A DNA stretch of 64,000 bases from Escherichia coli (GTDB lineage Bacteria; Pseudomonadota; Gammaproteobacteria; Enterobacterales; Enterobacteriaceae): assembly GCF_965641715.1 (NCBI RefSeq), contig NZ_OZ282453.1. One strand, written 5' to 3'. The notes beneath the pieces were generated by a model. That model ran no database searches, had not been told where the DNA came from, and saw only the letters and a program-made list of their open reading frames with translations. Positions 5,359 through 27,822 of the stretch are shown one piece after another; within the stretch, counting starts at the first letter, position 1, and each line of letters starts with the position of its first letter. The translations under genes and the position numbers were made by a program.

Positions 5359-5401
5359 TATTGATGTTCTCTATTCCTTGATATAAGCGCAGAAGCTGCA
5401 T

Positions 5402-6085: not shown

Positions 6086-6630
6086 AGGATGAATTCCTTT
6101 TCATAATCCTGATGCGTTGAAAATTACTTTACAATCATTTGCTTTATGAATGATCAAGCTAAATAAATTCACGGTGAAAATTTATAATATTTTTAATTGG
6201 TCGTTACTGTGAATGTGTTATTCAATGCAGAAATATTTTAGTTTGTTGCCGATTATTATATTAATCGCGCGGATTCTAATGATTGGTGTCAATCGATGTC
6301 AAATTTTTAAAGGGATAAGGTGAGAAAAAGTCAAAGGATAATATTTGTATGGTGAATGTTTTATAGTGATAAGGACAGTTTGAGTTGGAAAATATAAATA
6401 AATAGTTATGATATAAGCATGTTTATGCTGATATTTATAGCTGTAAATTATATATTAATTTTTATTGCGTAGCATATTTTCAGATTTTAACCTGCTAAAA
6501 TTATTCAGGTGAGTGGGAAGAATTGAAAAGATAATGTTAATAGATTTCGATATCTGAAATATGCTCCTGCATTTGCCAGCAGGAGCGAATAAAAATGAGG
6601 AAACTTTAGTTGTATTGACCAGTAGGGGAC
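6086..6630 (-). promoter_or_regulatory. Long AT-rich intergenic region holding the yibL terminator and the presumed promoter of the lipoprotein-adhesin operon
   Basis: 545 bp of very AT-rich sequence (for example ttataatatttttaattgg, aaatataaataaatagttatgatataagc) between yibL stop and the lipoprotein start. Confidence 0.4.
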
Positions 6631-6993
6631 TTAAAACGCGGTCTTTGAGAAGCCGGTCATCTCTTCCAGGCCCATTTCGCGGCCCAGCGCGGTCATTGGG
6701 TGAACAACCACCAGTCCGCGAACACTTTTCTTCAGCTTGCCCATATCAGCCTGCTCTTTTTTGGTAATTGCGCGCTGAAACGGCATCTTCATCAGCTTCT
6801 GTGCTTCTTTACTCAGTTTCTGGCTGTGAACTTCACGCAGGCGGGCAATTTCTGCTTCCAGCGTGGCTTTCTCTTTTTCCAGCTCGGCATATTTGTCTGC
6901 GGCTTCAACCAGCGACAGATCGGCCTGCTGGTGGCGGATGGCGTCCAGACGATCGCTGAGACGTTTGATTTCGTTTTTTTCGACTTCTTTCAT
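6631..6993 (-). CDS. yibL: YibL, ribosome-associated protein of unknown function, 120 aa
   Basis: Translation [28 protein letters not shown]... matches recalled K-12 YibL in length and position next to mtlR/yibT. Confidence 0.85.
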
Positions 6994-11376: not shown

Positions 11377-11912
11377 AAAAACACCCCTTCTTATGTTTGC
11401 TGTCGCGCAGGCTGGAAGCCCGAGGTTTTTTGTTAATGTGGCGGCAGAGGTAGCCGGACCTTGTAGATACTGCGAAATCTGGCACTGAATCGGTTAACTG
11501 TCCAGTCGACGGCCTTTTGTGTGATATCAATCACATAAATATAGGGGGTAGAGAGGTAATTGACGTGACGTTCATCACAAAACGCTTGTGTAAAAAAGCA
11601 ACAAGGCGGCGATTTTCGCTAAAAATGGCATTTAAATGTGAGTAGTGTCACATTTTTGTTTTGATGGTTTGTTGAATCTTTGTGATCTGAATCACAAGAT
11701 ATTTTCTTACGGCGTTCACCTGATGTGATCTACAGCATGTTATGCCTTCGTCATACAATCGTTATGTAACTAAGCAACTCATCACCTCTAAAAATTATTC
11801 TTTGGTGTTATGGCGAGAATCGCGAACCCGGATTATTGTCAAAATATCAGCCTGACTCCCTTCTGGCTGCCAGCCAAAAAACAACACTGATAAACGTGAA
11901 TCCGAGGCAAAT
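11377..11912. promoter_or_regulatory. mtl operon regulatory region, divergent from yibI, with multiple CRP sites
   Basis: Perfect CRP consensus TGTGA-N6-TCACA at 11520-11535 (tgtgatatcaatcaca) and 11681-11696 (tgtgatctgaatcaca), plus a half-site-rich element at 11565-11579; the mtl promoter is known to carry several CRP sites. Confidence 0.7.
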
Positions 11913-12275
11913 ATGTTTCTAAACTATTTCGCGTTGGGAGTGCTGATCTTCGTCTTTCTGGTGATTTTTTATGGAATCATCGCGATACATGACATCCCTT
12001 ATTTGATTGCCAAAAAGCGCAACCATCCCCATGCCGACGCTATTCATACGGCGGGCTGGGTGAGCCTGTTTACTCTGCATGTTATCTGGCCGTTTCTGTG
12101 GATCTGGGCGACGCTCTATCAACCGGAGCGCGGCTGGGGCATGCAGTCACATGTTGCGTCGCAGGAGAAAGTGACTGACCCGGAAATCGCCGCACTTTCT
12201 GACCGAATTTCCCGGCTGGAGCACCAACTCGCCGCCGAGAAAAAGACTGACTATTCCACGTTCCCGGAGATCTAA
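11913..12275 (+). CDS. yibI: DUF3302-type small membrane protein YibI, 120 aa
   Basis: N-terminal transmembrane helix and conserved [20 protein letters not shown] motif; paralogue of yiaW at 21011. Confidence 0.85.
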
Positions 12276-12277
12276 TT

Positions 12278-13414
12278 ATGGATCTATTGATTGTTTTAAC
12301 TTACGTGGCGCTGGCGTGGGCGGTCTTTAAAATCTTTCGTATTCCGGTGAATCAATGGACGCTGGCGACGGCGGCGCTGGGAGGCGTGTTTCTGGTGAGT
12401 GGTTTGATTTTGTTGATGAACTACAACCACCCTTACACTTTTACCGCGCAAAAGGCTGTGATAGCGATCCCCATCACGCCACAGGTGACGGGAATTGTTA
12501 CTGAAGTCACTGACAAGAATAATCAGCTTATTCAAAAGGGCGAGGTGCTTTTTAAGCTCGACCCGGTTCGTTACCAGGCGCGAGTTGACAGACTTCAGGC
12601 TGACCTGATGACGGCGACGCATAATATAAAGACGCTGCGCGCGCAGCTCACTGAAGCGCAGGCCAACACCACCCAGGTTTCAGCGGAGCGCGACCGTCTG
12701 TTTAAAAATTATCAACGTTATCTGAAAGGCAGCCAGGCGGCGGTGAATCCGTTCTCGGAACGTGACATCGACGATGCGCGGCAAAATTTCCTCGCGCAGG
12801 ATGCGCTGGTGAAAGGCTCGGTGGCGGAGCAGGCGCAGATCCAGAGCCAGCTCGACAGTATGGTCAACGGCGAGCAATCGCAGATTGTGAGCTTAAGAGC
12901 GCAACTTACTGAAGCAAAATATAATCTTGAGCAGACTGTCATTCGCGCACCAAGCAATGGCTACGTCACTCAGGTACTGATCCGCCCAGGCACATACGCA
13001 GCTGCCTTGCCGTTGCGTCCGGTGATGGTTTTCATCCCCGAGCAAAAACGGCAAATTGTCGCCCAATTTCGGCAAAACTCGCTGTTACGTCTGAAACCTG
13101 GTGATGATGCGGAAGTGGTGTTTAACGCGCTACCTGGGCAGGTGTTCCACGGCAAACTGACCAGTATTTTACCTGTCGTGCCAGGCGGTTCTTATCAGGC
13201 GCAGGGGGTATTGCAATCATTAACGGTCGTGCCCGGCACGGACGGTGTGCTGGGAACCATTGAACTGGACCCTAACGATGATATCGATGCCTTACCCGAC
13301 GGCATTTACGCCCAGGTGGCAGTTTACTCCGACCATTTCAGCCATGTTTCGGTGATGCGGAAAGTGCTGCTAAGAATGACCAGCTGGATGCATTATCTTT
13401 ATTTGGATCATTGA
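12278..13414 (+). CDS. yibH: HlyD-family membrane-fusion-like protein YibH, 378 aa
   Basis: N-terminal transmembrane helix, long coiled-coil, C-terminal beta domain; 2 bp downstream of yibI; paralogue of yiaV. Confidence 0.85.
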
Positions 13415-13484
13415 GACTTATATCACCTGTGTTTTGCGTGAGCCTGAGCCATACTGATATTTTTCCTCGCACAAAGGACTCGGC

Positions 13485-14093
13485 ATGAAACTCGTCGGTA
13501 GCTACACCAGCCCGTTTGTACGCAAACTTTCTATTCTGTTGTTAGAAAAGGGCATAACTTTCGAATTTATTAATGAACTGCCCTATAACGCGGACAACGG
13601 CGTGGCGCAATTTAACCCGTTAGGAAAAGTGCCGGTGCTGGTGACCGAAGAGGGCGAATGCTGGTTTGATTCGCCGATCATCGCTGAATATATTGAATTA
13701 ATGAATGTCGCTCCGGCGATGTTGCCGCGCGATCCGCTGGAGTCGTTGCGGGTGCGCAAAATTGAGGCACTGGCGGATGGCATTATGGATGCCGGGCTGG
13801 TATCGGTGCGTGAACAGGCGCGTCCAGCGGCGCAGCAGTCTGAAGATGAATTGTTACGCCAGCGGGAGAAAATCAACCGTAGTCTGGATGTGCTGGAAGG
13901 ATATCTGGTCGATGGCACACTTAAAACCGATACGGTCAATCTGGCGACGATCGCCATTGCCTGTGCCGTCGGATATCTCAATTTCCGCCGCGTTGCGCCA
14001 GGCTGGTGTGTCGACCGCCCACACTTAGTCAAACTGGTCGAAAACCTGTTTAGCCGCGAAAGTTTTGCTCGCACCGAACCGCCAAAGGCTTGA
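13485..14093 (+). CDS. yibF: Glutathione S-transferase-like protein YibF, 202 aa
   Basis: Thioredoxin-like GST N-terminal signature ([28 protein letters not shown]); position upstream of selA. Confidence 0.88.
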
Positions 14094-14190
14094 TGCGCGA
14101 TATGTCCTCCTGACCCATCTCACGTTACAATCCGTGGTTATGTTAAACGCCCTTCTCCGTGTGAGAGGGCCTTGATCAGCCAGGTTTCCT

Positions 14191-15582
14191 ATGACAACCG
14201 AAACGCGTTCCCTCTATAGTCAACTTCCGGCTATTGATCGCTTATTGCGCGATAGCTCCTTCCTTTCTTTGCGTGATACTTATGGTCACACCCGCGTGGT
14301 GGAATTGCTGCGTCAGATGCTTGACGAAGCGCGAGAAGTGATTCGTGACAGCCAGACGCTTCCCACGTGGTGTGAAAACTGGGCGCAAGAAGTCGATGCC
14401 CGGTTGACGAAAGAGGCGCAGAGCGCGCTGCGTCCGGTGATAAACCTGACGGGAACCGTGCTGCATACCAATCTTGGGCGAGCTTTACAGGCGGAAGCTG
14501 CGGTGGAAGCCGTTGCGCAGGCTATGCGTTCGCCAGTGACCCTCGAGTACGATTTGGACGACGCCGGACGCGGACATCGCGATCGGGCGCTGGCGCAGCT
14601 GCTGTGCCGCATTACCGGCGCGGAAGATGCCTGTATCGTTAATAACAATGCGGCGGCGGTGTTATTGATGTTGGCGGCCACTGCCAGCGGGAAAGAGGTG
14701 GTGGTTTCTCGCGGCGAATTGGTGGAGATTGGCGGCGCGTTTCGTATTCCCGATGTTATGCGTCAGGCAGGCTGCACACTATACGAAGTAGGGACCACCA
14801 ACCGCACGCACGCGAATGATTATCGTCAGGCGGTGAATGAAAATACCGCACTGTTGATGAAAGTACATACCAGTAACTACAGCATTCAGGGGTTCACCAA
14901 AGCGATAGACGAAGCTGAACTGGTGGCGCTCGGCAAAGAGCTGGATGTTCCAGTGGTGACTGATTTAGGCAGTGGCTCGCTGGTCGATCTTAGCCAGTAC
15001 GGTTTGCCGAAAGAGCCAATGCCGCAGGAGTTGATTGCGGCGGGCGTCAGTCTGGTGAGCTTCTCCGGCGACAAGTTGTTAGGCGGGCCGCAGGCAGGGA
15101 TTATCGTTGGTAAAAAAGAGATGATCGCCCGCCTGCAAAGCCACCCGCTGAAGCGTGCATTACGCGCGGATAAAATGACCCTCGCGGCGTTGGAAGCCAC
15201 GTTGCGTCTTTATTTACACCCTGAAGCTCTGAGTGAAAAATTACCGACCCTGCGCCTGCTTACCCGCAGCGCAGAGGTCATTCAAATCCAGGCACAACGT
15301 TTACAGGCTCCCCTTGCCGCACATTACGGCGCGGAGTTTGCGGTACAGGTTATGCCATGTCTTTCGCAGATTGGCAGTGGTTCGCTGCCGGTTGATCGCC
15401 TGCCGAGCGCGGCATTAACGTTTACACCCCATGATGGACGCGGTAGCCACCTTGAGTCATTAGCCGCCCGCTGGCGTGAATTGCCAGTGCCGGTGATTGG
15501 TCGTATTTATGACGGACGATTGTGGCTGGATTTACGCTGCCTTGAAGATGAGCAACGGTTTTTGGAGATGTTGTTGAAATGA
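14191..15582 (+). CDS. selA: L-seryl-tRNA(Sec) selenium transferase, 463 aa
   Basis: Length and sequence match; stop overlaps the selB start (ATGA at 15579-15582). Confidence 0.95.
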
Positions 15583-17423
15583 TTATTGCGACTGCCGGAC
15601 ACGTTGACCACGGCAAAACAACCTTATTGCAGGCGATTACTGGCGTAAATGCCGATCGTCTGCCGGAAGAAAAAAAGCGCGGCATGACTATCGATCTCGG
15701 CTATGCCTACTGGCCGCAGCCGGATGGCCGCGTGCCTGGTTTTATCGACGTACCCGGTCATGAAAAGTTTCTTTCCAACATGCTGGCGGGCGTTGGTGGT
15801 ATCGATCACGCGCTGTTGGTGGTGGCGTGCGATGACGGCGTGATGGCACAGACCCGTGAGCATCTGGCGATTTTGCAGCTGACCGGTAACCCGATGCTGA
15901 CAGTGGCGCTGACCAAAGCCGATCGCGTGGACGAAGCGCGTGTTAATGAGGTTGAACGCCAGGTAAAGGAGGTGCTGCGGGAATACGGTTTTGCTGAGGC
16001 AAAACTGTTTATCACCGCAGCAACCGAAGGTCGGGGAATTGATGCCCTGCGCGAGCATCTGCTTCAGTTACCAGAACGTGAACACGCCAGCCAACATAGT
16101 TTCCGCCTCGCGATCGACCGCGCATTTACCGTAAAAGGTGCCGGGCTGGTCGTCACCGGTACGGCGTTAAGCGGGGAAGTGAAGGTAGGCGATTCACTAT
16201 GGCTGACTGGTGTAAATAAACCGATGCGTGTACGTGCACTGCATGCACAAAACCAGCCAACAGAAACCGCTCATGCCGGCCAGCGTATCGCGCTTAACAT
16301 CGCGGGGGATGCGGAAAAAGAGCAGATTAACCGTGGCGACTGGCTGCTTGCCGATGTGCCGCCAGAGCCGTTCACGCGGGTGATTGTCGAGCTTCAAACC
16401 CATACGCCGCTGACCCAGTGGCAGCCGCTGCATATTCACCACGCCGCCAGCCACGTTACGGGACGCGTTTCGCTGCTGGAAGATAACCTTGCCGAGCTGG
16501 TGTTCGACACGCCGCTGTGGCTGGCGGATAACGATCGCTTAGTGTTGCGCGATATCTCGGCCCGCAATACGCTGGCGGGGGCGCGTGTGGTGATGCTTAA
16601 CCCGCCGCGTCGCGGTAAACGTAAGCCGGAATATCTGCAATGGCTGGCGTCTCTTGCACGGGCGCAGAGCGATGCCGATGCGTTATCTGTTCATCTGGAA
16701 CGCGGAGCGGTTAACCTTGCGGATTTCGCCTGGGCGCGCCAGCTCAACGGCGAAGGGATGCGCGAACTGCTGCAACAGCCTGGCTATATTCAGGCTGGTT
16801 ATAGCTTGTTGAATGCGCCGGTTGCCGCCCGCTGGCAGCGGAAAATTCTCGACACATTAGCGACTTATCATGAGCAACATCGCGATGAACCTGGTCCTGG
16901 GCGCGAGCGTCTGCGACGTATGGCGTTGCCAATGGAAGATGAAGCGCTGGTACTGTTGCTGATTGAAAAGATGCGCGAAAGCGGCGACATCCACAGCCAT
17001 CACGGCTGGTTGCATCTGCCAGATCACAAAGCGGGCTTCAGCGAAGAGCAGCAGGCCATCTGGCAAAAAGCAGAGCCGCTGTTTGGTGACGAGCCGTGGT
17101 GGGTGCGTGACCTGGCAAAAGAGACGGGAACCGACGAGCAGGCAATGCGTCTGACGCTACGCCAGGCGGCCCAACAGGGGATAATTACCGCGATCGTCAA
17201 AGATCGTTATTACCGTAACGATCGGATTGTCGAGTTTGCCAATATGATCCGCGATCTCGATCAGGAATGTGGTTCAACCTGCGCGGCGGATTTCCGCGAT
17301 CGCTTAGGGGTTGGGCGAAAACTGGCGATTCAAATCCTGGAATATTTTGACCGCATTGGCTTTACGCGTCGTCGTGGAAATGATCATTTATTGCGCGACG
17401 CATTATTATTTCCGGAAAAATAA
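15579..17423 (+). CDS. selB: Selenocysteine-specific translation elongation factor, 614 aa
   Basis: GTP-binding motif [11 protein letters not shown] at the N-terminus; length and position match. Confidence 0.95.
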
Positions 17424-17483
17424 GGAAATGATTAATTAAGTTTTAAAATAAATTAATACAAAATTCTTATGATTTTAAAAAAA

Positions 17484-17516
17484 GCACATTGTTTAATGAA
17501 TACAATGTGCTTTTTA
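17484..17516 (+). terminator. Rho-independent terminator downstream of selB
   Basis: Stem gcacattg / caatgtgc with an 11-nt loop followed by TTTTT. Confidence 0.7.
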
Positions 17517-17612
17517 TTAGATTAATTTTGCTAAACAATAATACTGATCATATTTTCGAATGAAAATCCTCAGTAAGCTGCCCGCCCTTTTTTACACTTT
17601 CAGGAGTGTGTT

Positions 17613-18764
17613 ATGGCAGCTTCAACCTTTTTTATTCCTTCTGTGAATGTCATCGGCGCTGACTCATTGGCTGATGCAATGAATATGATGGCAGAATATG
17701 GGTTTCGCCGTACATTGATTGTCACTGACAGTATGTTAACGAAATTAGGTATGGCGGGCGATGTGCAAAAAGCACTGGAAGAACGCAATATTTTTAGCAT
17801 TATTTATGATGGCACCCAACCTAACCCAACCACGGAAAACGTCGCCGCAGGTTTGAAATTACTTAAAGAAAATAATTGCGATAGCGTGATTTCCTTAGGC
17901 GGTGGTTCTCCGCATGACTGTGCAAAAGGTATTGCGCTGGTGGCAGCCAATGGTGGTGATATCCGTGATTATGAAGGCGTTGACCGCTCTGCAAAACCGC
18001 AGCTGCCGATGATCGCCATCAATACCACTGCGGGTACAGCATCAGAAATGACTCGTTTCTGCATCATCACCGACGAAGCGCGTCACATCAAAATGGCGAT
18101 TGTTGATAAGCACGTGACTCCGCTGCTTTCTGTCAATGACTCCTCTCTGATGATTGGTATGCCGAAGTCACTGACCGCCGCAACGGGTATGGATGCCTTA
18201 ACGCACGCTATCGAAGCGTATGTTTCTATTGCCGCCACGCCGATCACTGACGCTTGTGCACTGAAAGCCGTGACCATGATTGCCGAAAACCTGCCGTTAG
18301 CCGTTGAAGATGGCAGTAATGCGAAAGCGCGTGAAGCAATGGCTTATGCCCAGTTCCTCGCCGGTATGGCGTTCAATAATGCTTCTCTGGGTTATGTTCA
18401 TGCGATGGCGCACCAGCTGGGCGGTTTCTACAACCTGCCACACGGTGTATGTAACGCCGTTCTGCTGCCGCATGTTCAGGTATTCAACAGCAAAGTCGCC
18501 GCTGCACGTCTGCGTGACTGTGCCGCTGCAATGGGCGTGAACGTGACAGGTAAAAACGACGCGGAAGGTGCTGAAGCCTGCATTAACGCCATCCGTGAAC
18601 TGGCGAAGAAAGTGGATATCCCGGCAGGCCTACGCGACCTGAACGTGAAAGAAGAAGATTTCGCGGTTCTGGCGACTAATGCCCTGAAAGATGCCTGTGG
18701 CTTTACTAACCCGATCCAGGCAACTCACGAAGAAATTGTGGCGATTTATCGCGCAGCGATGTAA
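17613..18764 (+). CDS. yiaY: Fe-containing (group III) alcohol dehydrogenase YiaY, 383 aa
   Basis: Iron-ADH family sequence with GGGSPHD motif; K-12 position between selB and aldB. Confidence 0.9.
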
Positions 18765-18928
18765 TCATCATTTCCACAACGGCTGGCAAATTGTCAGCCG
18801 CTTTTTCAACTATCTCTGTAACCCTTGCCCGTAAATTCGTGATAGCCGTCGAAAAGCTGTTACCGACTGGCGAAGATTTCGCCAGCCACGTCTACCCTTG
18901 TTATACCTCACACCGCAAGGAGACGATC

Positions 18929-20467
18929 ATGACCAATAATCCCCCTTCAGCACAGATTAAGCCCGGCGAGTATGGTTTCCCCCTCAAGTTAAAAAACCGC
19001 TATGACAACTTTATTGGCGGCGAATGGGTAGCCCCTGCCGATGGTGAGTATTACCAGAACCTGACGCCGGTGACCGGGCAGCTGCTGTGCGAAGTGGCGT
19101 CTTCGGGCAAACGAGACATCGATCTGGCGCTGGATGCTGCGCACAAAGTGAAAGATAAATGGGCGCACACCTCGGTGCAGGATCGCGCGGCGATTCTGTT
19201 TAAGATTGCCGATCGAATGGAACAAAACCTCGAGCTGTTAGCGACAGCTGAAACCTGGGATAACGGCAAACCCATTCGCGAAACCAGTGCTGCCGACGTG
19301 CCGCTGGCGATTGACCATTTCCGCTATTTTGCCTCGTGTATTCGGGCGCAGGAAGGCGGGATCAGTGAAGTTGATAGCGAAACCGTGGCCTATCATTTCC
19401 ATGAACCGTTAGGCGTGGTGGGGCAGATTATCCCGTGGAACTTCCCGCTGCTGATGGCGAGCTGGAAAATGGCTCCCGCGCTGGCGGCGGGCAACTGTGT
19501 GGTGCTGAAACCCGCACGTCTTACCCCGCTTTCTGTACTGCTGCTAATGGAAATTGTCGGTGATTTACTGCCGCCGGGCGTGGTGAACGTGGTCAATGGC
19601 GCAGGTGGGGAAATTGGCGAATATCTGGCGACCTCGAAACGCATCGCCAAAGTGGCGTTTACCGGCTCAACGGAAGTGGGCCAACAAATTATGCAATACG
19701 CAACGCAAAACATTATTCCGGTGACGCTGGAGCTGGGCGGTAAGTCGCCAAATATCTTCTTTGCTGATGTGATGGATGAAGAAGATGCCTTTTTCGATAA
19801 AGCGCTGGAAGGCTTTGCACTGTTTGCCTTTAACCAGGGCGAAGTTTGCACCTGTCCGAGTCGTGCCTTAGTGCAGGAGTCAATCTACGAACGCTTTATG
19901 GAACGCGCCATCCGCCGTGTCGAAAGCATTCGCAGCGGTAACCCACTCGACAGCGTGACGCAAATGGGGGCGCAGGTTTCTCACGGGCAACTGGAAACCA
20001 TCCTCAACTACATTGATATCGGTAAAAAAGAGGGCGCAGACGTGCTCACCGGCGGGCGGCGCAAGCTGCTGGAAGGCGAACTGAAAGACGGCTACTACCT
20101 TGAACCGACGATTCTGTTTGGTCAGAACAATATGCGGGTGTTCCAGGAAGAGATTTTTGGCCCGGTGCTGGCGGTGACCACCTTCAAAACGATGGAAGAA
20201 GCGCTGGAGCTGGCGAACGATACGCAATATGGCCTGGGCGCGGGCGTCTGGAGCCGCAACGGTAATCTTGCCTATAAGATGGGGCGCGGCATACAGGCAG
20301 GGCGCGTGTGGACCAACTGTTATCACGCTTACCCGGCACATGCGGCGTTTGGTGGCTACAAACAATCAGGCATTGGACGCGAAACCCACAAGATGATGCT
20401 GGAGCATTACCAGCAAACCAAGTGCCTGCTGGTGAGCTACTCAGATAAACCGTTGGGGCTGTTCTGA
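18929..20467 (+). CDS. aldB: Aldehyde dehydrogenase B, 512 aa
   Basis: ORF track frame begins at 18791; start refined to ATG 18929 ([17 protein letters not shown]) preceded by SD aaggagacg, giving the K-12 length. Confidence 0.93.
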
Positions 20468-20494
20468 TATAAGAAGCTGGTCGCATTGGGTATT

Positions 20495-20582
20495 CATTGC
20501 CTGATGCGACGCTTACGCGTCTTATCATGCCTACGGGACCTGACCGTAGGCCGGATAAGGCGTACACGCCGCATCCGGCATA
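20495..20582. repeat. REP pair (BIME) downstream of aldB
   Basis: Units gcctgatgcgacgcttacgcgtcttatcatgcctac and gtaggccggataaggcgtacacgccgcatccggc. Confidence 0.65.
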
Positions 20583-21010
20583 AACAAAGCGCACGTTGTT
20601 ACAATTTACGTTTTAAACCTACGTGCGCAATAACCCAGACTACGCCAACAGAAGTGCGTTTCTGGGGCGTGTTTTGCCAGGAGTTTAATCTCGCGTTTCG
20701 ATGGTGAGCGGGCGAACCAGGCCATAAATCACCATTGGCGTTCCGAGGCCAATCAGCAATAAACGGTAGATAATTGAAGGTTTAATACGCTTAATCTGCA
20801 TTGTGGATGTTTTACTGAAGTTATTCATTAGTTTGGCTGATAGTTCCATTATTTCAATATGATAAGCCTCGACCTGTTAAAAAGCCAGGCAGCACACTTC
20901 AGGAAGTATATAAAAAACAATATGTCGTTATATAAATAAGGAAATTGCACTGCATCATGGCATTTAATAATATGCGTTAATTGTTCATTTTTATATTCTC
21001 TGAGGGAAAT

Positions 21011-21334
21011 ATGTTCCTGGATTATTTTGCACTGGGAGTGCTTATTTTTGTATTTCTGGTGATATTCTATGGGATTATTATTTTACATGATATTCCCTAC
21101 CTGATTGCTAAAAAACGTAATCATCCTCATGCCGACGCCATTCATGTTGCTGGTTGGGTGAGTCTTTTTACGCTGCATGTTATCTGGCCATTTTTGTGGA
21201 TTTGGGCCACGCTTTACCGCCCGGAGCGGGGATGGGGAATGCAAAACCATGATTCATCCGTTATGCAACTGCAACAGCGCATTGCCGGGCTGGAGAAACA
21301 GCTCGCCGACATCAAATCCTCTTCTGCCGAGTAA
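21011..21334 (+). CDS. yiaW: DUF3302-type small membrane protein YiaW, 107 aa
   Basis: ORF track starts at a TTG (20981); ATG at 21011 gives [23 protein letters not shown]..., nearly identical at the N-terminus to YibI. Confidence 0.85.
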
Positions 21335-21339
21335 TACTT

Positions 21340-22476
21340 ATGGATTTACTGATTATTTTGACCTATGTGGCTTTTGCATGGGCAATGTTTAAGATCTTCA
21401 AAATTCCCGTAAATAAATGGACCATTCCCACAGCGGCCCTGGGTGGAATATTTATTGTCAGCGGTCTAATTCTGTTAATGAACTATAACCATCCGTATAC
21501 CTTTAAAGCGCAAAAAGCGGTTATTTCTATTCCTGTTGTCCCACAGGTGACTGGTGTGGTGATTGAAGTGACGGATAAGAAAAATACGCTGATTAAAAAA
21601 GGTGAAGTGCTATTTCGACTGGACCCGACGCGTTATCAGGCGCGGGTGGATCGGCTGATGGCGGATATCGTTACCGCAGAACATAAACAGCGGGCGTTGG
21701 GCGCAGAGTTAGATGAGATGGTGGCGAATACTCAGCAGGCAAAGGCCACGCGGGATAAATTCGCTAAAGAGTACCAGCGTTACGCACGCGGCAGCCAGGC
21801 GAAAGTAAACCCGTTTTCAGAACGCGATATTGATGTGGCACGGCAAAATTATCTGGCGCAGGAAGCCTCCGTAAAGTCATCGGCGGCGGAACAAAAACAG
21901 ATCCAGAGCCAGCTGGATAGCCTGGTGTTGGGTGAACATTCTCAAATCGCCAGCCTGAAAGCGCAGCTCGCGGAAGCAAAATATAACCTTGAGCAGACGA
22001 TAGTGCGTGCGCCGAGCGATGGTTATGTGACCCAAGTGCTGATTCGTCCGGGTACCTATGCCGCGTCGCTGCCGCTACGTCCGGTGATGGTGTTTATACC
22101 CGATCAGAAACGACAAATCGTGGCGCAGTTCCGTCAGAACTCCTTGCTGCGACTGGCTCCTGGCGACGATGCGGAAGTGGTGTTTAATGCTCTGCCAGGT
22201 AAGGTATTCAGCGGTAAGCTGGCAGCCATTAGTCCAGCCGTTCCCGGCGGAGCTTATCAGTCGACCGGCACCTTACAGACGTTAAACACAGCGCCGGGTT
22301 CAGATGGCGTTATCGCGACCATTGAACTGGATGAGCATACTGATTTGAGCGCATTACCAGACGGTATTTACGCCCAGGTGGCGGTCTACTCTGATCATTT
22401 CAGCCATGTCTCGGTGATGCGCAAAGTACTGTTACGCATGACCAGCTGGGTGCATTACCTTTATCTCGATCATTAA
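21340..22476 (+). CDS. yiaV: HlyD-family membrane-fusion-like protein YiaV, 378 aa
   Basis: Same architecture and length as YibH; C-terminus [20 protein letters not shown] is nearly identical to that of YibH. Confidence 0.88.
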
Positions 22477-23447
22477 TCTTCGCTTTCCGCCGCTTGTTCA
22501 GGCCGCAGTTGCTGCGACTGAGCAAGCTGGTGGCGAATTTCACGCAGCATTTCATCCAGCACATACTGGACCCGCCAGGGCTGGTATTCCCGTTTACGGA
22601 AGATAGCCACCAGATCCAGCCACCATTCATACGGGTGCTGAAAGCAGGGCACCAGCGTGCCGTCTTGCAGATCGCTCTGCACACTTTTGTCTGGCGCAAA
22701 CACAATCCCCAGGTGATTTCGTGCCAGCTCCAGCGCCGATTGCGTGTTATCGCAAACGTAATTTCCCTTCACGCGATAATCCCGCACCTCTTTACTCCCG
22801 GCGACGTTGAAGCGCCAGATATTCGCGTCGTCGATCATCATCGAGTCGATCAAAATACAGGAGTGATGTTCGAGTTCGTCAGGACGGCTAATGGGATGTT
22901 TCTCAAGATAGCGCTGGCTGGCATAAGCGGTTACGGCATATTGGGTAATAAAACTGGCAACCAGCGATTCATCTTTTGGTGGGGCATAGCTGATTAAAAC
23001 ATCACAATCATCAGGAAATTCGACGCCTTCATAAAAGGCATTACGCTCAAGATTGCAGGTTTTTAGCGATAAGGTGATATCACCGATATCTTTAATTTTA
23101 TCGATTACATGTTTGGATAAATAGGTAATTATGCCGGTTGGGGCGTAGATGGTGACCCGACCACGTTTCTCATGCTTATAATCTGCAATAAAATTATTAA
23201 GCTGCTCGTTTCTGTCCAGCATGTCGTTGATGTACGGTAACAGCGCGGTACCAAAAGGTGTGAGCATCAGCTGCCGGGTGGTTCGGTCAAAGACTTTTAA
23301 ACCCACTTTTGATTCAAAATCAGCAAGGTATTTGCTGACGTTGGCCTGTGCGATGCCAAGTACAGTCGCGGCATGGCTGATATTTTCACTGGCAGCGATT
23401 ACCGAGATAATTTTTAACTCCCGGTACTTAAGTTGTAATTTTGTCAT
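22473..23447 (-). CDS. yiaU: LysR-family transcriptional regulator YiaU, 324 aa
   Basis: N-terminal LysR helix-turn-helix; convergent with yiaV, stop codons overlapping. Confidence 0.88.
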
Positions 23448-23570
23448 CGCAACAGCCCAATTATATATAATTTTATATATTACTATATAAATATGAATCT
23501 TGCACCGGAGAAATTGTAAGCATTACTATGCCGACTCTTTTTTATCTTATTTTAAAATGGAATACCGGAC

Positions 23571-24311
23571 ATGTTAATTAACCGCAATATTGTGGCGTTA
23601 TTTGCGTTGCCTTTTATGGCAAGCGCAACTGCTTCTGAATTATCCATTGGTGCCGGTGCGGCTTATAATGAATCGCCTTATCGCGGTTATAATGAAAATA
23701 CAAAGGCAATTCCCCTGATTAGTTATGAAGGTGATTCTTTTTATGTTCGTCAGACCACGTTAGGTTTTATTCTGTCGCAAAGTGAAAAAAATGAACTTAG
23801 CCTGACCGCATCCTGGATGCCGCTGGAATTTGACCCTGCCGATAATGACGATTATGCCATGCAACAGCTTGATAAGCGTGATAGTACGGCTATGGCGGGG
23901 GTTGCCTGGTATCACCACGAGCGTTGGGGAACCGTGAAAGCCTCTGCAGCTGCGGACGTTCTGGATAACAGCAACGGCTGGGTGGGGGAGCTATCGGTAT
24001 TCCACAAAATGCAGATAGGTCGTCTGTCGCTGACACCTGCGCTAGGCGTTCTCTATTATGACGAGAATTTCAGTGACTATTACTATGGCATTTCAGAGAG
24101 TGAGTCCCGTCGTAGCGGTCTGGCAAGTTATTCCGCGCAGGATGCCTGGGTGCCCTATGTCAGCCTGACGGCAAAATACCCGATAGGAGAGCACGTCGTA
24201 TTGATGGCGAGCGCAGGATACAGCGAGCTGCCGGAAGAGATTACCGACAGCCCGATGATTGATCGTAATGAGAGTTTTACCTTTGTCACCGGCGTGAGCT
24301 GGCGTTTTTAA
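23571..24311 (+). CDS. yiaT: MipA/OmpV-family outer-membrane protein YiaT, 246 aa
   Basis: Signal peptide and C-terminal aromatic residue (...GVSWRF), typical of a beta-barrel protein. Confidence 0.85.
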   Translation: MLINRNIVALFALPFMASATASELSIGAGAAYNESPYRGYNENTKAIPLISYEGDSFYVRQTTLGFILSQSEKNELSLTASWMPLEFDPADNDDYAMQQLDKRDSTAMAGVAWYHHERWGTVKASAAADVLDNSNGWVGELSVFHKMQIGRLSLTPALGVLYYDENFSDYYYGISESESRRSGLASYSAQDAWVPYVSLTAKYPIGEHVVLMASAGYSELPEEITDSPMIDRNESFTFVTGVSWRF

Positions 24312-24361
24312 TTCACCGGTGGATGTCGGTGCGGCTGGCCTACGCTCTCGCACCGACTTGT

Positions 24362-24447
24362 ATGCCTGATAAGACGTGTTAAGCGTCGCATCAGGCAATG
24401 TGCTCCTTACGTTGGATGCGGCGCGAGTGCCTTATCCAACCTACGGA
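24362..24447. repeat. REP pair between yiaT and the accessory hydrolase gene
   Basis: Units gcctgataagacgtgttaagcgtcgcatcaggc and ggatgcggcgcgagtgccttatccaacctacgg; the second overlaps the hydrolase stop. Confidence 0.55.
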
Positions 24448-26411
24448 TGGCAATGCTTTTCCTCATTCACCCAGATCCGCATTTCGCCTTCACCCCGGTT
24501 GGCCCAGCTAAACCACGGGATAAAGGTCAGAGTTTGCGTCTGGCGTTTGGCTGGCGCGCTGTCGTAATGCCACAGCGGTTGCTGCTCTGGATTGCTCTGT
24601 TCATACCGGTAACCCGGTGCCTGGATTAAGATCTTATGGCTAAACAATCCCTTGCCTTCAAATGTCGTAAATGGCGCATCGGTGGGCAGCCACAGATTAT
24701 GCAGTGACTCGCCGTTGTCGGCCTGTTCCAGGCAATACACCAGCGGGCCGCGCTGAATCGCCACTTTTCCGGCGACGTGACGCACCAGCGGGTTACCGTA
24801 AACGCGGCGTACCGGCATCGGCAAAGTCAGATTCAGCGTATCGCCCTCCTGCCATTCGCGGGTAATGTGCAAATACCCTTTACGAATATCCTGCTCGACC
24901 TCTTCCCCATTCAATATGATCTGCGGCTGTGTGCACCAGTCCGGCAGACGTAAAGCCAGCGTATGACGTACCGGCTGGGGCGATTCAACCGCAATCGTCA
25001 CCTGCTCCTGCCACGGATAGTTCCCGCTAACCCGCAGGCGCAGCGTGCCATTTTCTACCGGCACTTCCATGCTGTTTCCTGCGTATATGTTGATATACAA
25101 CGCATCTTCACGCGGCGTGTAGAGATAATGACCAATCGAGGTCAGCACGCGGGCGATATTTGGCGGACAACAAGCGCAGCCAAACCAACGCTGGCGGATC
25201 GGTTTAACGTGATCGTAGATATGGTTGAATTTCAGCGATTTTGGATGTACTTCCAGCGGATTCACATAGAAGAAATGTTTGCCATCCAGCGCCATGCCGC
25301 CGAGCACGGTGTTGTACAGTGCACGCTCCATCACATCGGCATATTGACTGTCGCCTTCCATTTCCAGCATTCGTCGGGCAAACATCATCAGGCCGATGGA
25401 GGCGCAACTTTCAGCGTATACCGTGTCATTCGGCAGATCGTAATCGCTAGTGAACGCTTCGCCGCTGCTTTGCGAGCCAATGCCGCCGGTAATATATAAC
25501 TGACGCTGGGCCATATTGTTCCACAGCCGCAGGCAGTCCTGACGCTTGCTGTCATCGTGACTTAAACGCGCGAGATGCGCGACGCCGGTCATCAGATAGA
25601 CAAAACGTACCGCGTGACCGATGGCGGTTTGCTGTTGCGCAAGGGGTAAATGTGCCTGGCTGTAGGCTTTGTCTTTCACCATCCACGCCGGGCCGTAGGT
25701 GTGCCAGTGCGATGTCTGCCCGCGCTTTTCATATTCCTGGTCGTAATAGTGCGGTTGCGCACCACGCTGTTCGACAAAATAGTTCGTCAGCGCCAGGTAG
25801 CGCGGCTCTTCAGTCACTTCATACAGGCGCATTAGTGCCAGTTCAATTTCCGGGTGACCAGGATAACCGTGTAACTTACTTTCATCTGGACCAAATACGC
25901 TGTCGATATGATCGGCCAGGCGGCAAACGACCCCCAGCAAGCGCCGTTTTCCCGTGGCCTGGAAGAAGGCGACTCCGGCTTCAATCAGATGACCTGCGCA
26001 GTAAAGTTCATGACACTCCGCCAGATTGCTCCAGCGTTCTTCGGGTGCTTTTACCGTAAAGTAAGTATTGAGATAGCCGTCTTCGCATTGGGCGGAGGCG
26101 ATCAGTTCGATTACCTCGTCGGCGGTTTTTTCCAGTTCGGCGTCCGGCTTCTGGCACAGCGACCAGGCTACCGCTTCCAGCCATTTGGCGACGTCGCTGT
26201 CCTGAAACACCATCCCGTAAAATTCACCCTCCTGAAGTCCGGCGGCAATGCGAAAGTTTTCAATCGCATGGCTGGGTTCCGCTTCTGGGATACGATCGTT
26301 CAAGGCATCCCACTGATAAGGAATCACCACGTCGCGGACCAGTTGTTGGTACTGACCGAGGAACGGATCGCTGACCGTCAGTTTATGCAGATCGACTTCC
26401 GAAATGTTCAT
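24441..26411 (-). CDS. Glycoside hydrolase family 127-like protein (DUF1680; beta-L-arabinofuranosidase-type), about 656 aa
   Basis: Motifs AESCASIG (Glu-x-Cys) and WFGCACCPPN (Cys pair) resemble the Zn/catalytic-Cys site of GH127 HypBA1; start refined to ATG 26411 with SD aaggag overlapping the upstream stop. Confidence 0.75.
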   Translation of the reverse strand: MNISEVDLHKLTVSDPFLGQYQQLVRDVVIPYQWDALNDRIPEAEPSHAIENFRIAAGLQEGEFYGMVFQDSDVAKWLEAVAWSLCQKPDAELEKTADEVIELIASAQCEDGYLNTYFTVKAPEERWSNLAECHELYCAGHLIEAGVAFFQATGKRRLLGVVCRLADHIDSVFGPDESKLHGYPGHPEIELALMRLYEVTEEPRYLALTNYFVEQRGAQPHYYDQEYEKRGQTSHWHTYGPAWMVKDKAYSQAHLPLAQQQTAIGHAVRFVYLMTGVAHLARLSHDDSKRQDCLRLWNNMAQRQLYITGGIGSQSSGEAFTSDYDLPNDTVYAESCASIGLMMFARRMLEMEGDSQYADVMERALYNTVLGGMALDGKHFFYVNPLEVHPKSLKFNHIYDHVKPIRQRWFGCACCPPNIARVLTSIGHYLYTPREDALYINIYAGNSMEVPVENGTLRLRVSGNYPWQEQVTIAVESPQPVRHTLALRLPDWCTQPQIILNGEEVEQDIRKGYLHITREWQEGDTLNLTLPMPVRRVYGNPLVRHVAGKVAIQRGPLVYCLEQADNGESLHNLWLPTDAPFTTFEGKGLFSHKILIQAPGYRYEQSNPEQQPLWHYDSAPAKRQTQTLTFIPWFSWANRGEGEMRIWVNEEKHCHP

Positions 26412-26421
26412 CTTGTGCTCC

Positions 26422-27822
26422 TTAAGGCTGTACATGACGCTGACGCAGGTCGGTAGCTATGCGTGACATCATAGGATTATTGAGTTTGCAAAAGCGGATC
26501 GCCCCTGCCAGCAGCAGGTGGAATAGCGCAGGCAGTAATGTTTCCATCGCCGCGATCCCGCCAAGCGAACTGGCGGTCTGGTTTTCCACGCCAGGCTGGT
26601 AGGCGACAAAAATAAACAGCAGGCTGATGATCCCGGCGCTGGAGGCCCAGGCCAGCTTGATGAAAAACAGATTGAAGGCGAAGTTCATGCCGGAAGAACG
26701 TACGCGGGTTTTCCACTCGCCGTAGTCATCGGCAAAGGCCATCAATGAGAAGTGCAGTGGCAATGTGAAGCCAAGAATCACGCCATTACCGAGGATCACC
26801 GCCAGCCACAGCGTTTGATAAGCCGGGCCGGAGGGCAGGAACCACATCAACACCGCCAGCGCAGCGAGGAGCTGGTTGGTGTAGTAGTAAATTTTGACGG
26901 TATCGAAACGCCGCGTTAACGGGCTGACAATCACCGAGCCGATAATGGAGGCGAAGGTGACCATGGTGAAGAACAGCGACGTGTAGCCCGTACTGCCTTG
27001 TAAGACGTAGGTAATGAAGTACATATACCCACCGCCGCGAATGTTAAAGACGTTAATCAGCAGGAAAGACATGACCAGCATCAGCAGCAGTTGGTCGTTG
27101 TTCCGCAGCCCGGCAAGATGTTCGCGCAGGGTAAATTTCCCCATTGTGGAGAGTGGCACCCGTTCACGAACCCAGAAGAAACAGCACAGAAACATCACCA
27201 CGGCGATGGCGCACAGCACGCCGACGCCCAGTTGATAGCCGCGCGCGGCATTACCCTGACCGAAGAGATCTACCATCCACGGTAAGCCTACCGAAACCAG
27301 AAATCCCGCTACGCCACAGAGAACGAATCGCCAGGACTGGCAGGAGATCACTTCATTGTGGCGGGTGGTCATGGTGTTGATCAGCGCGCAGTACGGTACG
27401 TTGATGGCGGTATAACCGACTGAAAGGAGCAGGTAAGTACCGAACGCCCAGGCGATTTTTACTCCCATGCTGGCATCTGGCACGGTGAACGTCAGGATGC
27501 CGATAATGCCGATGGGAATGGCAATCCATAGCTGCCACGGACGAAAGCGCCCCCATCGGCTTTGCGTCCGGTCGGCAATGACGCCCATCACCGGGTCGGA
27601 GATAGCATCAAACACGCGCAGTGCAATAAACAGCGTGCCAACCAGCGCCGGAGTTAATCCAAAAACGTCGGTGTAGAAAAAGGTGAGAAAGTTCATGATC
27701 AGGCAAGTTATTACGGTGCCGCCTGCGTCACCCAGGCCGTAGCCTATTTTTTCCCGTACAGATAACGCATCGTCAATTTTACCTTTAGCGATATCAGCGG
27801 TAGTAATCGGTGTAGAGGTCAT
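26422..27822 (-). CDS. Glycoside-pentoside-hexuronide (GPH) family sugar:cation symporter, 466 aa
   Basis: About 12 predicted transmembrane segments; GYGLGD motif near the N-terminus as in MelB/YicJ-type transporters; SD gagga upstream of the start. Confidence 0.75.

What the first reader, a model, noticed from the sequence alone, without database searches (positions are those of the whole stretch)
11913..22476. Duplicated DUF3302 + HlyD-like two-gene modules (yibI-yibH and yiaW-yiaV) bracketing selAB-yiaY-aldB
Two co-oriented paralogous pairs lie about 9 kb apart (11913-13414 and 21011-22476). Each is a small membrane protein with the conserved motif [20 protein letters not shown], followed within 2-5 bp by a 378-aa membrane-fusion-like protein; the two large proteins share an almost identical C-terminus ([12 protein letters not shown][M/V]HYLYLDH). 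Neither pair has an adjacent inner-membrane pump or outer-membrane channel, so these are orphan membrane-fusion-like modules of unknown function. Diverged direct repeats of this kind are also potential substrates for recombination that would delete or duplicate the intervening selAB-yiaY-aldB block.
Basis: partly seen in the sequence, partly recalled or inferred. Interest (0 to 1): 0.5.

Follow-up and report, generated by a model that had tools for sequence, protein, structure and literature searches.

The report
Two orphan DUF3302–adaptor gene pairs
The window carries two ancient copies (yibI-yibH and yiaW-yiaV) of a conserved two-gene unit, a small membrane protein plus an EmrA-like periplasmic adaptor; it probably links the inner membrane to a TolC-type outer-membrane channel, no pump gene travels with it, and the copies are too diverged to recombine.

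Summary
yibI-yibH (11913-13414) and yiaW-yiaV (21011-22476) are co-oriented paralogous operons in an E. coli chromosome. The large proteins are 77% identical and the small ones 74%. Each pair is a DUF3302 protein plus an MFP/HlyD-family adaptor, with 2 and 5 nt between the genes.

These are annotated but uncharacterised E. coli y-genes, so the genes themselves are not new.

The recombination idea fails:
- The copies share 69% nucleotide identity, synonymous sites are saturated, and the longest exact run is 20 nt.
- The block between them is single-copy in 5425 of 5426 complete E. coli genomes.

Both copies are under strong purifying selection (dN/dS 0.02-0.04). yibIH is core (5406/5426 genomes). 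yiaWV is present in only 3800/5426, and the sampled genomes that lack it (B2 strains such as ST131, UTI89 and E2348/69) lack the whole yiaW-V-U-T block.

Across Gamma- and Alphaproteobacteria the pair is always adjacent and translationally coupled. No conserved pump gene lies next to it. The adaptor is EmrA-like in fold, with a family-specific two-helix membrane anchor and C-terminal helix. Lineages whose adaptor has a short hairpin carry a TolC-like gene in the operon.

Best reading: a pump-less, or unlinked-pump, trans-envelope adaptor complex. This is a moderately interesting variant of a known kind.

The parts
11913..12275 (+). yibI: DUF3302 inner-membrane protein of module 1 (120 aa). It has two predicted TM helices, a conserved loop [20 protein letters not shown], a variable linker and a C-terminal helix.
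   Evidence: ORF; Pfam PF11742 E 3e-41; AF2 model pLDDT 86.5 with helices 2-26, 28-35, 41-68 and 90-113; RefSeq name yibI.
12278..13414 (+). yibH: EmrA-type periplasmic adaptor (MFP) of module 1 (378 aa).
   Evidence: ORF; Pfam HlyD/CusB domains; NCBIfam best hits EmrA/EmrK and MdtN, both far below cut-off; AF2 pLDDT 81.4; Foldseek best hit EmrA in EmrAB-TolC, 8zar_D, E 2e-20, TM 0.63.
12278..12427 (+). YibH residues 1-50: N-terminal two-helix membrane hairpin (helices 2-19 and 26-50). This is a family signature; EmrA and AaeA have one helix.
   Evidence: AF2 secondary structure; conserved from E. coli to Shewanella, Halomonas, Marinobacter and metagenomic relatives, while AaeA lacks the first helix; mean consensus fraction 0.76.
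13340..13411 (+). YibH residues 355-378: C-terminal helix H..S.MRK.LLRM.SW.HYLYLDH, the most conserved segment of the family.
   Evidence: 23/24 identical between YibH and YiaV; mean consensus fraction 0.80 across the family; helix 355-374 in the model.
13485..20467 (+). Intervening genes yibF, selA, selB, yiaY and aldB. They are unrelated to the modules and are listed because the finding spans them.
   Evidence: ORFs; annotation of the matching E. coli region; found in 5425/5426 complete genomes, median one place per genome.
21011..21334 (+). yiaW: DUF3302 inner-membrane protein of module 2 (107 aa).
   Evidence: ORF; 74% identical to YibI; RefSeq name yiaW, DUF3302.
21340..22476 (+). yiaV: EmrA-type periplasmic adaptor of module 2 (378 aa). 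It differs from YibH mainly in hairpin helix 1 (32/56 identical) and the loop 303-319 (9/17).
22473..23447 (-). yiaU (LysR-type regulator, proposed name LpsR). It is convergent with yiaV, with a 4-bp overlap of the 3' ends, and is lost together with yiaWV in the sampled E. coli genomes that lack module 2.
   Evidence: ORF; annotation; block absent; listed as a convergent 'excludon' pair yiaU-yiaV in PMC12288877; regulon data in PMC9068703.
23571..24311 (+). yiaT (MipA/OmpV-family outer-membrane protein), the fourth gene of the variable yiaW-V-U-T block. A functional link to yiaWV is unproven.
   Evidence: ORF; annotation; regulated by YiaU (PMC9068703); present without yiaWV in Enterobacter, Lelliottia and Leclercia loci.

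Best explanation
Each module is a translationally coupled two-gene operon encoding an obligate pair: a DUF3302 two-helix inner-membrane protein and an EmrA-type periplasmic adaptor.

The adaptor is anchored by its own two-helix hairpin. It has lipoyl and beta-barrel domains, an alpha-hairpin the same length as E. coli EmrA's, and a conserved C-terminal helix.

The most likely mechanism is as follows. The adaptor oligomerises into a periplasmic tube, as EmrA, MacA and AcrA do as hexamers, and docks tip-to-tip on a TolC-family outer-membrane channel. The DUF3302 protein binds the adaptor's membrane hairpin and C-terminal helix and forms the dedicated inner-membrane part of the assembly. Together they make a trans-envelope export or efflux conduit. 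Its energising transporter is either encoded elsewhere or absent.

The two E. coli copies are ancient, separately maintained paralogues. They have diverged in the channel-lining hairpin helix and a barrel loop, which suggests different cargo or partners and partial redundancy.

Shown: paralogy, purifying selection, obligate adjacency and coupling, EmrA-like fold, TolC-like gene linkage in short-hairpin lineages, and absence of a conserved pump neighbour.

Inferred: oligomeric state, TolC docking, DUF3302-adaptor contact, substrate and energy source.
For: 1. Fold and sequence. The closest solved relative is E. coli EmrA from the EmrAB-TolC pump (phmmer 1.7e-11, profile 4e-23, Foldseek E 2e-20, TM 0.63). 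The family profile aligns to EmrA residues 61-347 with one 2-residue indel at the hairpin tip, so the hairpin has the same length. The domain order matches the published EmrA: membrane helix, barrel, lipoyl, hairpin, long barrel loop, C-terminal helix, and no membrane-proximal domain (PMC13139468).

2. Obligate pair. A DUF3302 gene is immediately followed by this type of adaptor in every locus with enough sequence: Enterobacterales (72 loci), Shewanella, Halomonas, Marinobacter, Vibrio, Rhizobium and metagenomes. The stop-to-start gap is -1 to +16 nt in 97 modules, and 94 of them are 5 nt or less.

3. The segments conserved family-wide are the membrane hairpin and the C-terminal helix, not the periplasmic body. 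This fits a membrane-level partnership with DUF3302.

4. Three independent lineages whose adaptor lacks about 60 hairpin residues carry a TolC-like OEP gene (PF02321) inside the operon: L004, L079/L080 and L089/L090.

5. Selection. dN/dS against Citrobacter orthologues is 0.023 for yibH and 0.038 for yiaV.

6. Phenotype. In UTI89, which has only module 1, the yibI promoter is urine-induced. A yibI deletion has a competitive index of 0.33 in urine and reduced adhesion (PMC5404293).
Against: No inner-membrane transporter gene is conserved next to the module in any lineage examined, so an energy source for export is missing. There is no direct evidence of TolC interaction, hexamer formation or DUF3302-adaptor contact. 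I did not find a canonical RLS-type TolC-docking motif by eye in the hairpin. The long-hairpin modules, including E. coli's, never have an OEP gene nearby. Published phenotypes are weak or indirect. Module 2 is dispensable in about 30% of E. coli genomes. The topology of DUF3302 is not resolved by charge distribution, so it is unknown whether its C-terminal helix is periplasmic or cytoplasmic.
Confidence: 0.45

Rival explanations
1. The pair is an adaptor sub-complex for a classical transporter encoded elsewhere in the genome, for example an orphan FUSC-family protein such as YccS or YhfK, or an MFS pump. The complete machine would then be an ordinary tripartite pump with an unlinked pump gene, and DUF3302 would play an AaeX- or AcrZ-like accessory role.
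For: The closest families (EmrA, MdtN, AaeA) all work with a pump. aaeX-aaeA-aaeB has the same gene order of small membrane protein then adaptor, plus a LysR regulator. In two short-hairpin operons a secondary transporter follows the OEP gene: a Na_H_Exchanger with a 1-nt gap in L089/L090 and SulP in L004. My recollection that E. coli has two orphan FUSC paralogues is from memory and was not tested.
Against: No transporter family recurs next to the module across about 100 loci. The two transporters seen belong to different families. DUF3302 is not detectably related to AaeX or AaeB (hhalign probability 0.1-0.2%). The family-specific extra membrane helix and the obligate DUF3302 partner suggest a different membrane arrangement from EmrA/EmrB.
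Confidence: 0.25
2. The DUF3302 protein and the adaptor's own membrane hairpin are the whole inner-membrane component. If the assembly is hexameric this would be a ring of up to 24 helices. It would form a pump-less conduit or valve to an outer-membrane channel, either passive or driven through conserved His/Asp residues.
For: The module is self-contained in every lineage, and operons of DUF3302, adaptor and OEP exist. The membrane segments are the best-conserved parts. DUF3302 has a near-invariant His in TM2 and an HD...RxHPH.DA loop. DUF3302 has no solved or recognisable fold relative.
Against: There is no precedent for a pump-less adaptor/OMF exporter. The stoichiometry is unknown. Only H38 of the His-rich loop is near-invariant, so a metal or proton site is not established. 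No structure of the complex could be computed here.
Confidence: 0.17
3. The module does not transport anything. It is an envelope tether, scaffold or sensor that uses the adaptor fold to reach the outer membrane or peptidoglycan, or to modulate TolC availability.
For: Recurrent neighbours are envelope proteins rather than pumps: a DUF3313 lipoprotein in 7 loci, yiaT (MipA/OmpV) and a LysR regulator tied to LPS genes. Reported phenotypes concern adhesion, transformation efficiency and permeability rather than drug resistance.
Against: The hairpin length matches EmrA, and OEP genes are linked in short-hairpin clades; both point to a channel-docking role. The neighbour associations are intermittent: 7 of about 24 loci outside the conserved mtlA or aldB contexts (my count from the locus list).
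Confidence: 0.1
4. One reading: the main significance of the copies is as diverged direct repeats that mediate deletion or duplication of selAB-yiaY-aldB.
For: The copies are co-oriented and 9 kb apart.
Against: The copies share 69% nucleotide identity, the longest identical run is 20 nt and pS is 0.80. There is no gene-conversion signal. The intervening block is single-copy in 5425/5426 genomes. Genomes without yiaWV keep yibIH and the block, so they arose by other events, including an IS1 deletion and cassette replacement.
Confidence: 0.03

Closest known systems
EmrA, the periplasmic adaptor of the MFS-type EmrAB-TolC pump (E. coli; PDB 8zar/8zal; PMC13139468)
   Same: It is the best sequence and fold match. 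It has the same domain order, no membrane-proximal domain, an N-terminal membrane anchor, the same alpha-hairpin length, a long low-confidence barrel loop at the position of EmrA's beta-CL loop, and a C-terminal helix.
   Different: YibH and YiaV have two N-terminal membrane helices, not one. They have a different, highly conserved C-terminal helix sequence and an obligate DUF3302 partner gene, and no emrB-like pump gene adjacent. The NCBIfam EmrA/EmrK score is 113 bits against a cut-off of 390.8.
AaeX-AaeA-AaeB (aromatic carboxylic acid efflux, with LysR regulator AaeR)
   Same: The operon begins with a small membrane protein gene directly followed by an EmrA-like adaptor, and a LysR-family regulator is adjacent. 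The adaptor C-termini share an [FV][FM]RK..xR[LM] pattern.
   Different: There is no AaeB-like FUSC pump gene. DUF3302 is not detectably homologous to AaeX (DUF1656) or AaeB. AaeA has one membrane helix. The AaeA model score is 75 bits against a cut-off of 400.
MdtN of MdtNOP (adaptor + FUSC-type pump + outer-membrane factor)
   Same: It is the top NCBIfam hit for YiaV and the second for YibH (E about 4e-32). The short-hairpin DUF3302 operons also include an OMF gene, as mdtNOP does.
   Different: The score of 111 bits is far below the cut-off of 376. No MdtO-like pump is adjacent, and no OMF gene lies in the E. coli modules.
Small accessory membrane proteins of efflux pumps (e.g. AcrZ with AcrB)
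   Same: A small inner-membrane protein associated with a tripartite-pump component. This is a functional analogy only, drawn from general knowledge.
   Different: AcrZ binds the pump, not the adaptor, is a single helix, and is not encoded in the acrAB operon. DUF3302 has two helices plus a tail and is strictly co-encoded with the adaptor.

Membership tests
Membrane fusion protein / periplasmic adaptor family (HlyD family, TC 8.A.1) | Lipoyl (barrel-sandwich), beta-barrel and alpha-helical hairpin domains | tested here: met
   Pfam CusB_dom_1 4e-15, HlyD_D23 5e-9, Biotin_lipoyl_2. The AF2 model shows these elements. Foldseek finds 70 adaptor matches with E<=1e-3. YiaV is listed as TC 8.A.1.1.4 in PMC10971958.
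Membrane fusion protein / periplasmic adaptor family (HlyD family, TC 8.A.1) | Encoded with, and working with, an inner-membrane transporter (RND, ABC, MFS or FUSC) | tested here: not met
   No transporter gene is adjacent in the window. No family recurs next to the module in about 100 related loci.
Membrane fusion protein / periplasmic adaptor family (HlyD family, TC 8.A.1) | Oligomeric tube that docks on a TolC-family outer-membrane factor | not testable with these tools
   Only indirect support: the hairpin length equals EmrA's, and OEP genes sit in the operons of short-hairpin relatives.
EmrA/EmrK subfamily (TIGR00998) and EmrA equivalog (NF011715) | Score at or above the curated cut-off (390.8 / 563 bits) | tested here: not met
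   113.5 and 57.1 bits for YibH; 111.1 and 51.9 bits for YiaV.
MdtN equivalog (NF007785) and AaeA equivalog (NF007850) | Score at or above the curated cut-off (376 / 400 bits) | tested here: not met
   110.9 and 75.1 bits for YibH; 111.5 and 63.2 bits for YiaV.
DUF3302 (PF11742) | Match to the Pfam profile over its full length | tested here: met
   E 3.3e-41, model positions 1-76 of 77. There are 817 cluster representatives with E<=1e-3 in 1.84 billion proteins.
AaeX-type small subunit (DUF1656) | Detectable homology to AaeX | tested here: not met
   hhalign probability 0.1%.
Anti-phage defence systems (PADLOC) | Match to a defence-protein model | tested here: not met
   No hits for either small protein or for YiaV; YibH has only two coiled-coil-type hits at E about 0.005.
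Recombinogenic direct repeats | High nucleotide identity with long exact tracts, plus population evidence of deletion or duplication between the copies | tested here: not met
   69% identity and a maximum exact run of 20 nt. The intervening block is single-copy in 5425/5426 genomes. There is no conversion signal.

The most novel reading that the evidence does not exclude
DUF3302 plus the two-helix-anchored adaptor would form a previously unrecognised, pump-less class of TolC-family-dependent trans-envelope conduit. A ring of small two-helix proteins and adaptor anchors would replace the RND, ABC, MFS or FUSC transporter as the inner-membrane component. The DUF3313 lipoprotein could act as an occasional outer-membrane accessory.
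Probability: 0.15. Interest if true: 0.7.

Novelty: new variant of a known kind. Interest (0 to 1): 0.35.

Why it matters
yibI, yibH, yiaW and yiaV belong to the uncharacterised 'y-ome' of the best-studied bacterium. They are the only E. coli EmrA-like adaptors that I know of without a cognate pump; that comparison rests on general knowledge and was not tested here.

If the pair is a TolC-linked conduit with an unusual or absent pump, it would add a new inner-membrane architecture to tripartite export systems. It could also explain TolC-dependent phenotypes not accounted for by known pumps.

The analysis has a practical consequence. Phylogroup B2 strains such as UTI89, ST131 and E2348/69 naturally carry only module 1. 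They are therefore non-redundant backgrounds for phenotyping, and the only clear published phenotype (urine fitness and adhesion of a UTI89 yibI deletion) comes from exactly such a strain.

The analysis also removes a misleading idea: that these repeats destabilise the selAB region.

Tried and rejected
- Recombination or gene conversion between the copies: rejected.
- Homology of DUF3302 to AaeX (DUF1656) or to AaeB (FUSC): none.
- Defence-system membership: none.
- Informative domain fusions of DUF3302: the longer representatives are low-complexity tails or mis-called starts.
- Promoter and terminator scans: nothing above shuffled expectation for promoters. The regions upstream of the two modules share no similarity beyond the ribosome-binding site.
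- A conserved transporter neighbour: not found. EmrAB-like pairs lie near the module in L024, L052 and L074, and CPA or SulP genes follow the OEP gene in two metagenomic operons, but these are not recurrent.
- PLSDB plasmid and chromid records of Rhizobium and Vibrio carried no annotation, so I called and classified the neighbours myself. None is pump-related apart from an unrelated DMT-family protein and GltS.
- The first regular expression used to measure gene spacing matched nothing and was rewritten.
- I considered testing whether the orphan FUSC genes yccS and yhfK co-vary with yiaWV across E. coli. I did not run it: the prior is low and both are probably core genes.
- A linker-fused YibI-YibH AlphaFold run was not done.


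Full report
OBSERVATION

They are yibI 11913-12275 (120 aa), yibH 12278-13414 (378 aa), yiaW 21011-21334 (107 aa) and yiaV 21340-22476 (378 aa). All are on the + strand, and the gaps within the pairs are 2 and 5 nt.

YibH and YiaV align over all 378 residues without gaps at 77% identity. YibI and YiaW are 74% identical, with one 8-residue gap in the tail in the BLASTP alignment. Both quoted motifs are present in both copies. At the DNA level the similarity starts at the ribosome-binding site and stops at the stop codon, and the flanks are unrelated.

Pfam assigns DUF3302 (PF11742, E 3e-41) to the small protein and HlyD/CusB adaptor domains to the large one. The window is an E. coli chromosome segment; the best match over 11.3 kb is 99.0%. 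RefSeq annotation of the collinear region names the genes mtlA | yibI yibH | yibF selA selB yiaY aldB | yiaW yiaV | yiaU (LysR, convergent) | yiaT (MipA/OmpV).

WHAT IS KNOWN

The literature held here treats all four genes as uncharacterised.
- yibH and yibI are listed among clusters of uncharacterised genes in the 2024 y-ome survey (PMC11551758).
- YiaV is listed as an orphan, TC 8.A.1.1.4 (PMC10971958).
- An IS1 insertion in yiaW arose in macrophage-evolved E. coli. An engineered insertion at the same site did not change phagosome maturation (PMC5495878).
- A yiaW deletion is cited as raising Ca2+-mediated transformation efficiency (PMC12844161).
- In UPEC UTI89 the yibI promoter is urine-induced. 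The yibI deletion has a competitive index of 0.33 in urine and reduced adhesion to bladder cells (PMC5404293).
- YiaU (proposed name LpsR) regulates yiaT and LPS-core genes. No effect on yiaWV is reported in the passages read (PMC9068703).

AGE OF THE DUPLICATION AND THE RECOMBINATION IDEA

yibH and yiaV share 69% nucleotide identity. Synonymous differences are saturated (pS 0.80), pN is 0.157, and the longest identical run is 20 nt.

Against Citrobacter youngae orthologues, dN/dS is 0.023 for yibH and 0.038 for yiaV, so both copies are under strong purifying selection. Within-genome paralogue identity (0.69 in E. coli) equals between-genome paralogue identity (0.69), including in sliding windows. 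There is therefore no sign of recent gene conversion.

In a neighbour-joining tree the yiaV clade (Escherichia, Citrobacter, Pseudocitrobacter) branches outside the clade that holds the yibH-type proteins of all sampled Enterobacterales, including Serratia, Yersinia and Pantoea. Serratia has a third, deeper paralogue. The tree has no bootstrap support, so this placement is only suggestive.

The block between the modules is present in 5425 of 5426 complete E. coli genomes, at a median of one place per genome. The proposal that the copies mediate deletion or duplication of selAB-yiaY-aldB is not supported.

POPULATION STRUCTURE

yibIH is core: 5406 of 5426 genomes. yiaWV is found in only 3800 of 5426. 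In the genomes examined that lack it, the whole yiaW-V-U-T block is missing or replaced:
- E2348/69 and UTI89: aldB abuts araD (sgbE).
- An ST131 strain: aldB-GH127-MFS-AraC.
- Another strain: a type I restriction gene and hicAB take the block's place.
- One strain: an IS1-mediated deletion runs from inside yiaW to yiaN.

In all of these, yibIH and the intervening genes are intact where the fetched region reaches them, so the events are not recombination between the copies. Other Escherichia species and Citrobacter carry the block, so its absence in B2-type strains is best read as loss.

UTI89, the source of the clearest published phenotype, has module 1 only. This fits partial redundancy in two-module strains such as K-12.

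ANATOMY OF THE FAMILY

DUF3302 is a small family: 817 cluster representatives at E <= 1e-3 in 1.84 billion proteins. It occurs in Gammaproteobacteria (Enterobacterales, Vibrio, Shewanella, Halomonas, Marinobacter, Ferrimonas) and in Rhizobium.

Its conserved core of about 75 residues has four parts: TM1; a loop [20 protein letters not shown] that contains a short helix; TM2 ([18 protein letters not shown]); and then a variable linker and a C-terminal heptad-like helix. It has no solved or recognisable relative and is not related to AaeX or AaeB.

The partner adaptor is closest to E. coli EmrA. The family profile aligns to EmrA residues 61-347 with only a 2-residue indel at the hairpin tip. The model shows:
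- two N-terminal membrane helices (2-19 and 26-50);
- lipoyl and barrel strands;
- a hairpin with arms of about 56 residues;
- a low-confidence loop (303-319) at the position of EmrA's beta-CL loop;
- a C-terminal helix (355-374) (PMC13139468).

Family-wide, the best-conserved segments are the C-terminal helix (H..S.MRK.LLRM.SW.HYLYLDH; consensus fraction 0.80) and the two-helix membrane hairpin (0.76). Both are recognisable even in relatives only 30-44% identical overall. AaeA has a single helix.

YibH and YiaV differ most in hairpin helix 1 (32/56 identical) and in loop 303-319 (9/17). In EmrA the hairpin domains form the channel and the corresponding barrel loop (beta-CL) walls the cavity beneath it.

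GENOMIC CONTEXT

In every related locus with enough sequence, a DUF3302 gene is immediately followed by this adaptor type. Across 97 modules the gap is -1 to +16 nt, and 94 of them are 5 nt or less.

Long-hairpin modules (375-385 aa) stand alone among unrelated genes in Enterobacterales, Shewanella, Halomonas, Marinobacter, Vibrio, Rhizobium and two metagenomic lineages.

Three independent lineages have an adaptor that lacks about 60 residues inside the hairpin (314-319 aa). These carry a TolC-like OEP gene in the operon:
- DUF3302-MFP-OEP-SulP (L004);
- OEP-DUF3302-MFP (L079/L080);
- DUF3302-MFP-OEP-Na_H_Exchanger, the last with a 1-nt gap (L089/L090).

A DUF3313 lipoprotein (PF11769, E 1e-60) lies next to the module in seven Enterobacterales loci from five genera and two paralogue clades. 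LysR regulators are adjacent to E. coli module 2 and to the Serratia third paralogue.

No inner-membrane transporter family recurs.

MECHANISM

The evidence best fits a translationally coupled, stoichiometric inner-membrane pair. An EmrA-type adaptor reaches a TolC-family channel. DUF3302 engages the adaptor's conserved membrane hairpin and C-terminal helix.

TolC docking is inferred from two observations: the hairpin length equals EmrA's, and OEP genes are linked in the short-hairpin clades. The oligomeric state, the DUF3302-adaptor contact, the substrate and the energy source are all inferences.

I cannot decide among three readings:
- an unlinked classical pump completes the machine (about 0.25);
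- the two small-helix components are the whole inner-membrane part (about 0.17);
- the assembly has a non-transport envelope role (about 0.10).

The umbrella statement, a TolC-family-linked trans-envelope adaptor complex with DUF3302 as its dedicated membrane subunit, gets 0.45.

COMPARISON AND NOVELTY

The adaptors are members of the MFP/HlyD superfamily by fold and Pfam. They fail the curated cut-offs for the EmrA/EmrK, MdtN and AaeA families by a wide margin. They also fail the operational criterion of a co-encoded pump.

The nearest organisational analogue is aaeXAB: a small membrane protein, an adaptor, a FUSC pump and a LysR regulator. However, the small proteins are unrelated and the pump is missing.

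The genes and their paralogy are already catalogued, so the bare observation is not new. The system is best described as a new, uncharacterised variant of a known kind. Interest is moderate. It would rise if the pump-less reading held.

LIMITS

No complex structure or interaction could be computed. The phylogeny is a single NJ tree. The context sample outside Enterobacterales is about 15 loci. Organism-level co-occurrence with TolC or candidate pumps was not testable. The literature library omits subscription-only papers, for example the 2005 tolerance screen cited for yiaV.

Noticed in passing
window 20468-24400; L094, L095, L096, L100: The segment between aldB and sgbE(araD) is variable in E. 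coli. yiaWV is detected in 3800 of 5426 complete genomes, and in the sampled genomes that lack it the whole yiaW-V-U-T block is absent. In E2348/69 and UTI89 aldB abuts araD. An ST131 strain keeps only GH127-MFS-AraC. Another strain carries a type I restriction gene plus hicAB in the block's place.
   Followed up: yes
L093 (NZ_CP028166.1), locus 6001-6930: An IS1B element sits at a deletion that runs from inside yiaW to yiaN in strain CFSAN064036. An independent IS1 insertion in yiaW was reported in macrophage-evolved E. coli (PMC5495878).
   Followed up: partly
L001 (NZ_CP135595.1), locus 4779-5915: yibH is annotated as a pseudogene (internal stop) in strain GDSC2227PM, although its yiaWV is 99.9% identical to the window's copy. 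The frequency of such inactivations across E. coli was not measured.
   Followed up: no
L063, L064, L065, L068, L073, L075, L076 (next to the DUF3302 gene): A DUF3313 lipoprotein of about 222 aa (PF11769; lipobox ..GC[SA]S) recurs beside the DUF3302-adaptor module in Biostraticola, Enterobacter sp. kpr-6, Pantoea, Serratia and Yersinia. There is none in the window. Its function is unknown.
   Followed up: partly
L089 11719-12945 and L090 3468-4694; L004 5534-7234: In short-hairpin metagenomic operons the OEP gene is followed by a Na_H_Exchanger (CPA-family) gene with a 1-nt gap. In another lineage it is followed by a SulP/STAS transporter after a 117-nt gap. These could be lineage-specific inner-membrane partners or just neighbours.
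   Followed up: no
between window 18764 and 18926 (yiaY-aldB spacer); L094 11727-13022: Many E. coli genomes carry a Fic-family protein gene of about 1.3 kb inserted between yiaY and aldB (e.g. E2348/69, UTI89, ST131). The window lacks it.
   Followed up: no
window 13415-13484 (yibH-yibF spacer): According to the y-ome paper, K-12 has rhsA, yibJ, yibG and yibV between yibF and yibH (PMC11551758). In the window yibH and yibF are 70 bp apart, so the distance between the two modules differs between strains.
   Followed up: no
window 24441-26435 (- strand): A 664-aa ORF is 98.5% identical to the glycoside hydrolase family 127 gene annotated in other E. coli (L096). The K-12-like strain of L001 has only remnants here, so the window combines yiaWVUT with the GH127-MFS-AraC cassette.
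   Followed up: partly
window 11500-22800: No complete RefSeq E. coli genome matches the whole 11.3-kb region at better than 99.0%. Yet yibIH alone is 99.9% identical to strain 33F4 and yiaWV alone is 99.9% identical to strain GDSC2227PM. This suggests a mosaic (recombinant) ancestry of the region in the source strain.
   Followed up: no
window 22473-22476: yiaV and yiaU are convergent and overlap by 4 bp at their 3' ends. The pair is listed as a transcriptional 'excludon' candidate in E. coli RNA-seq (PMC12288877), which hints at mutually exclusive expression.
   Followed up: no
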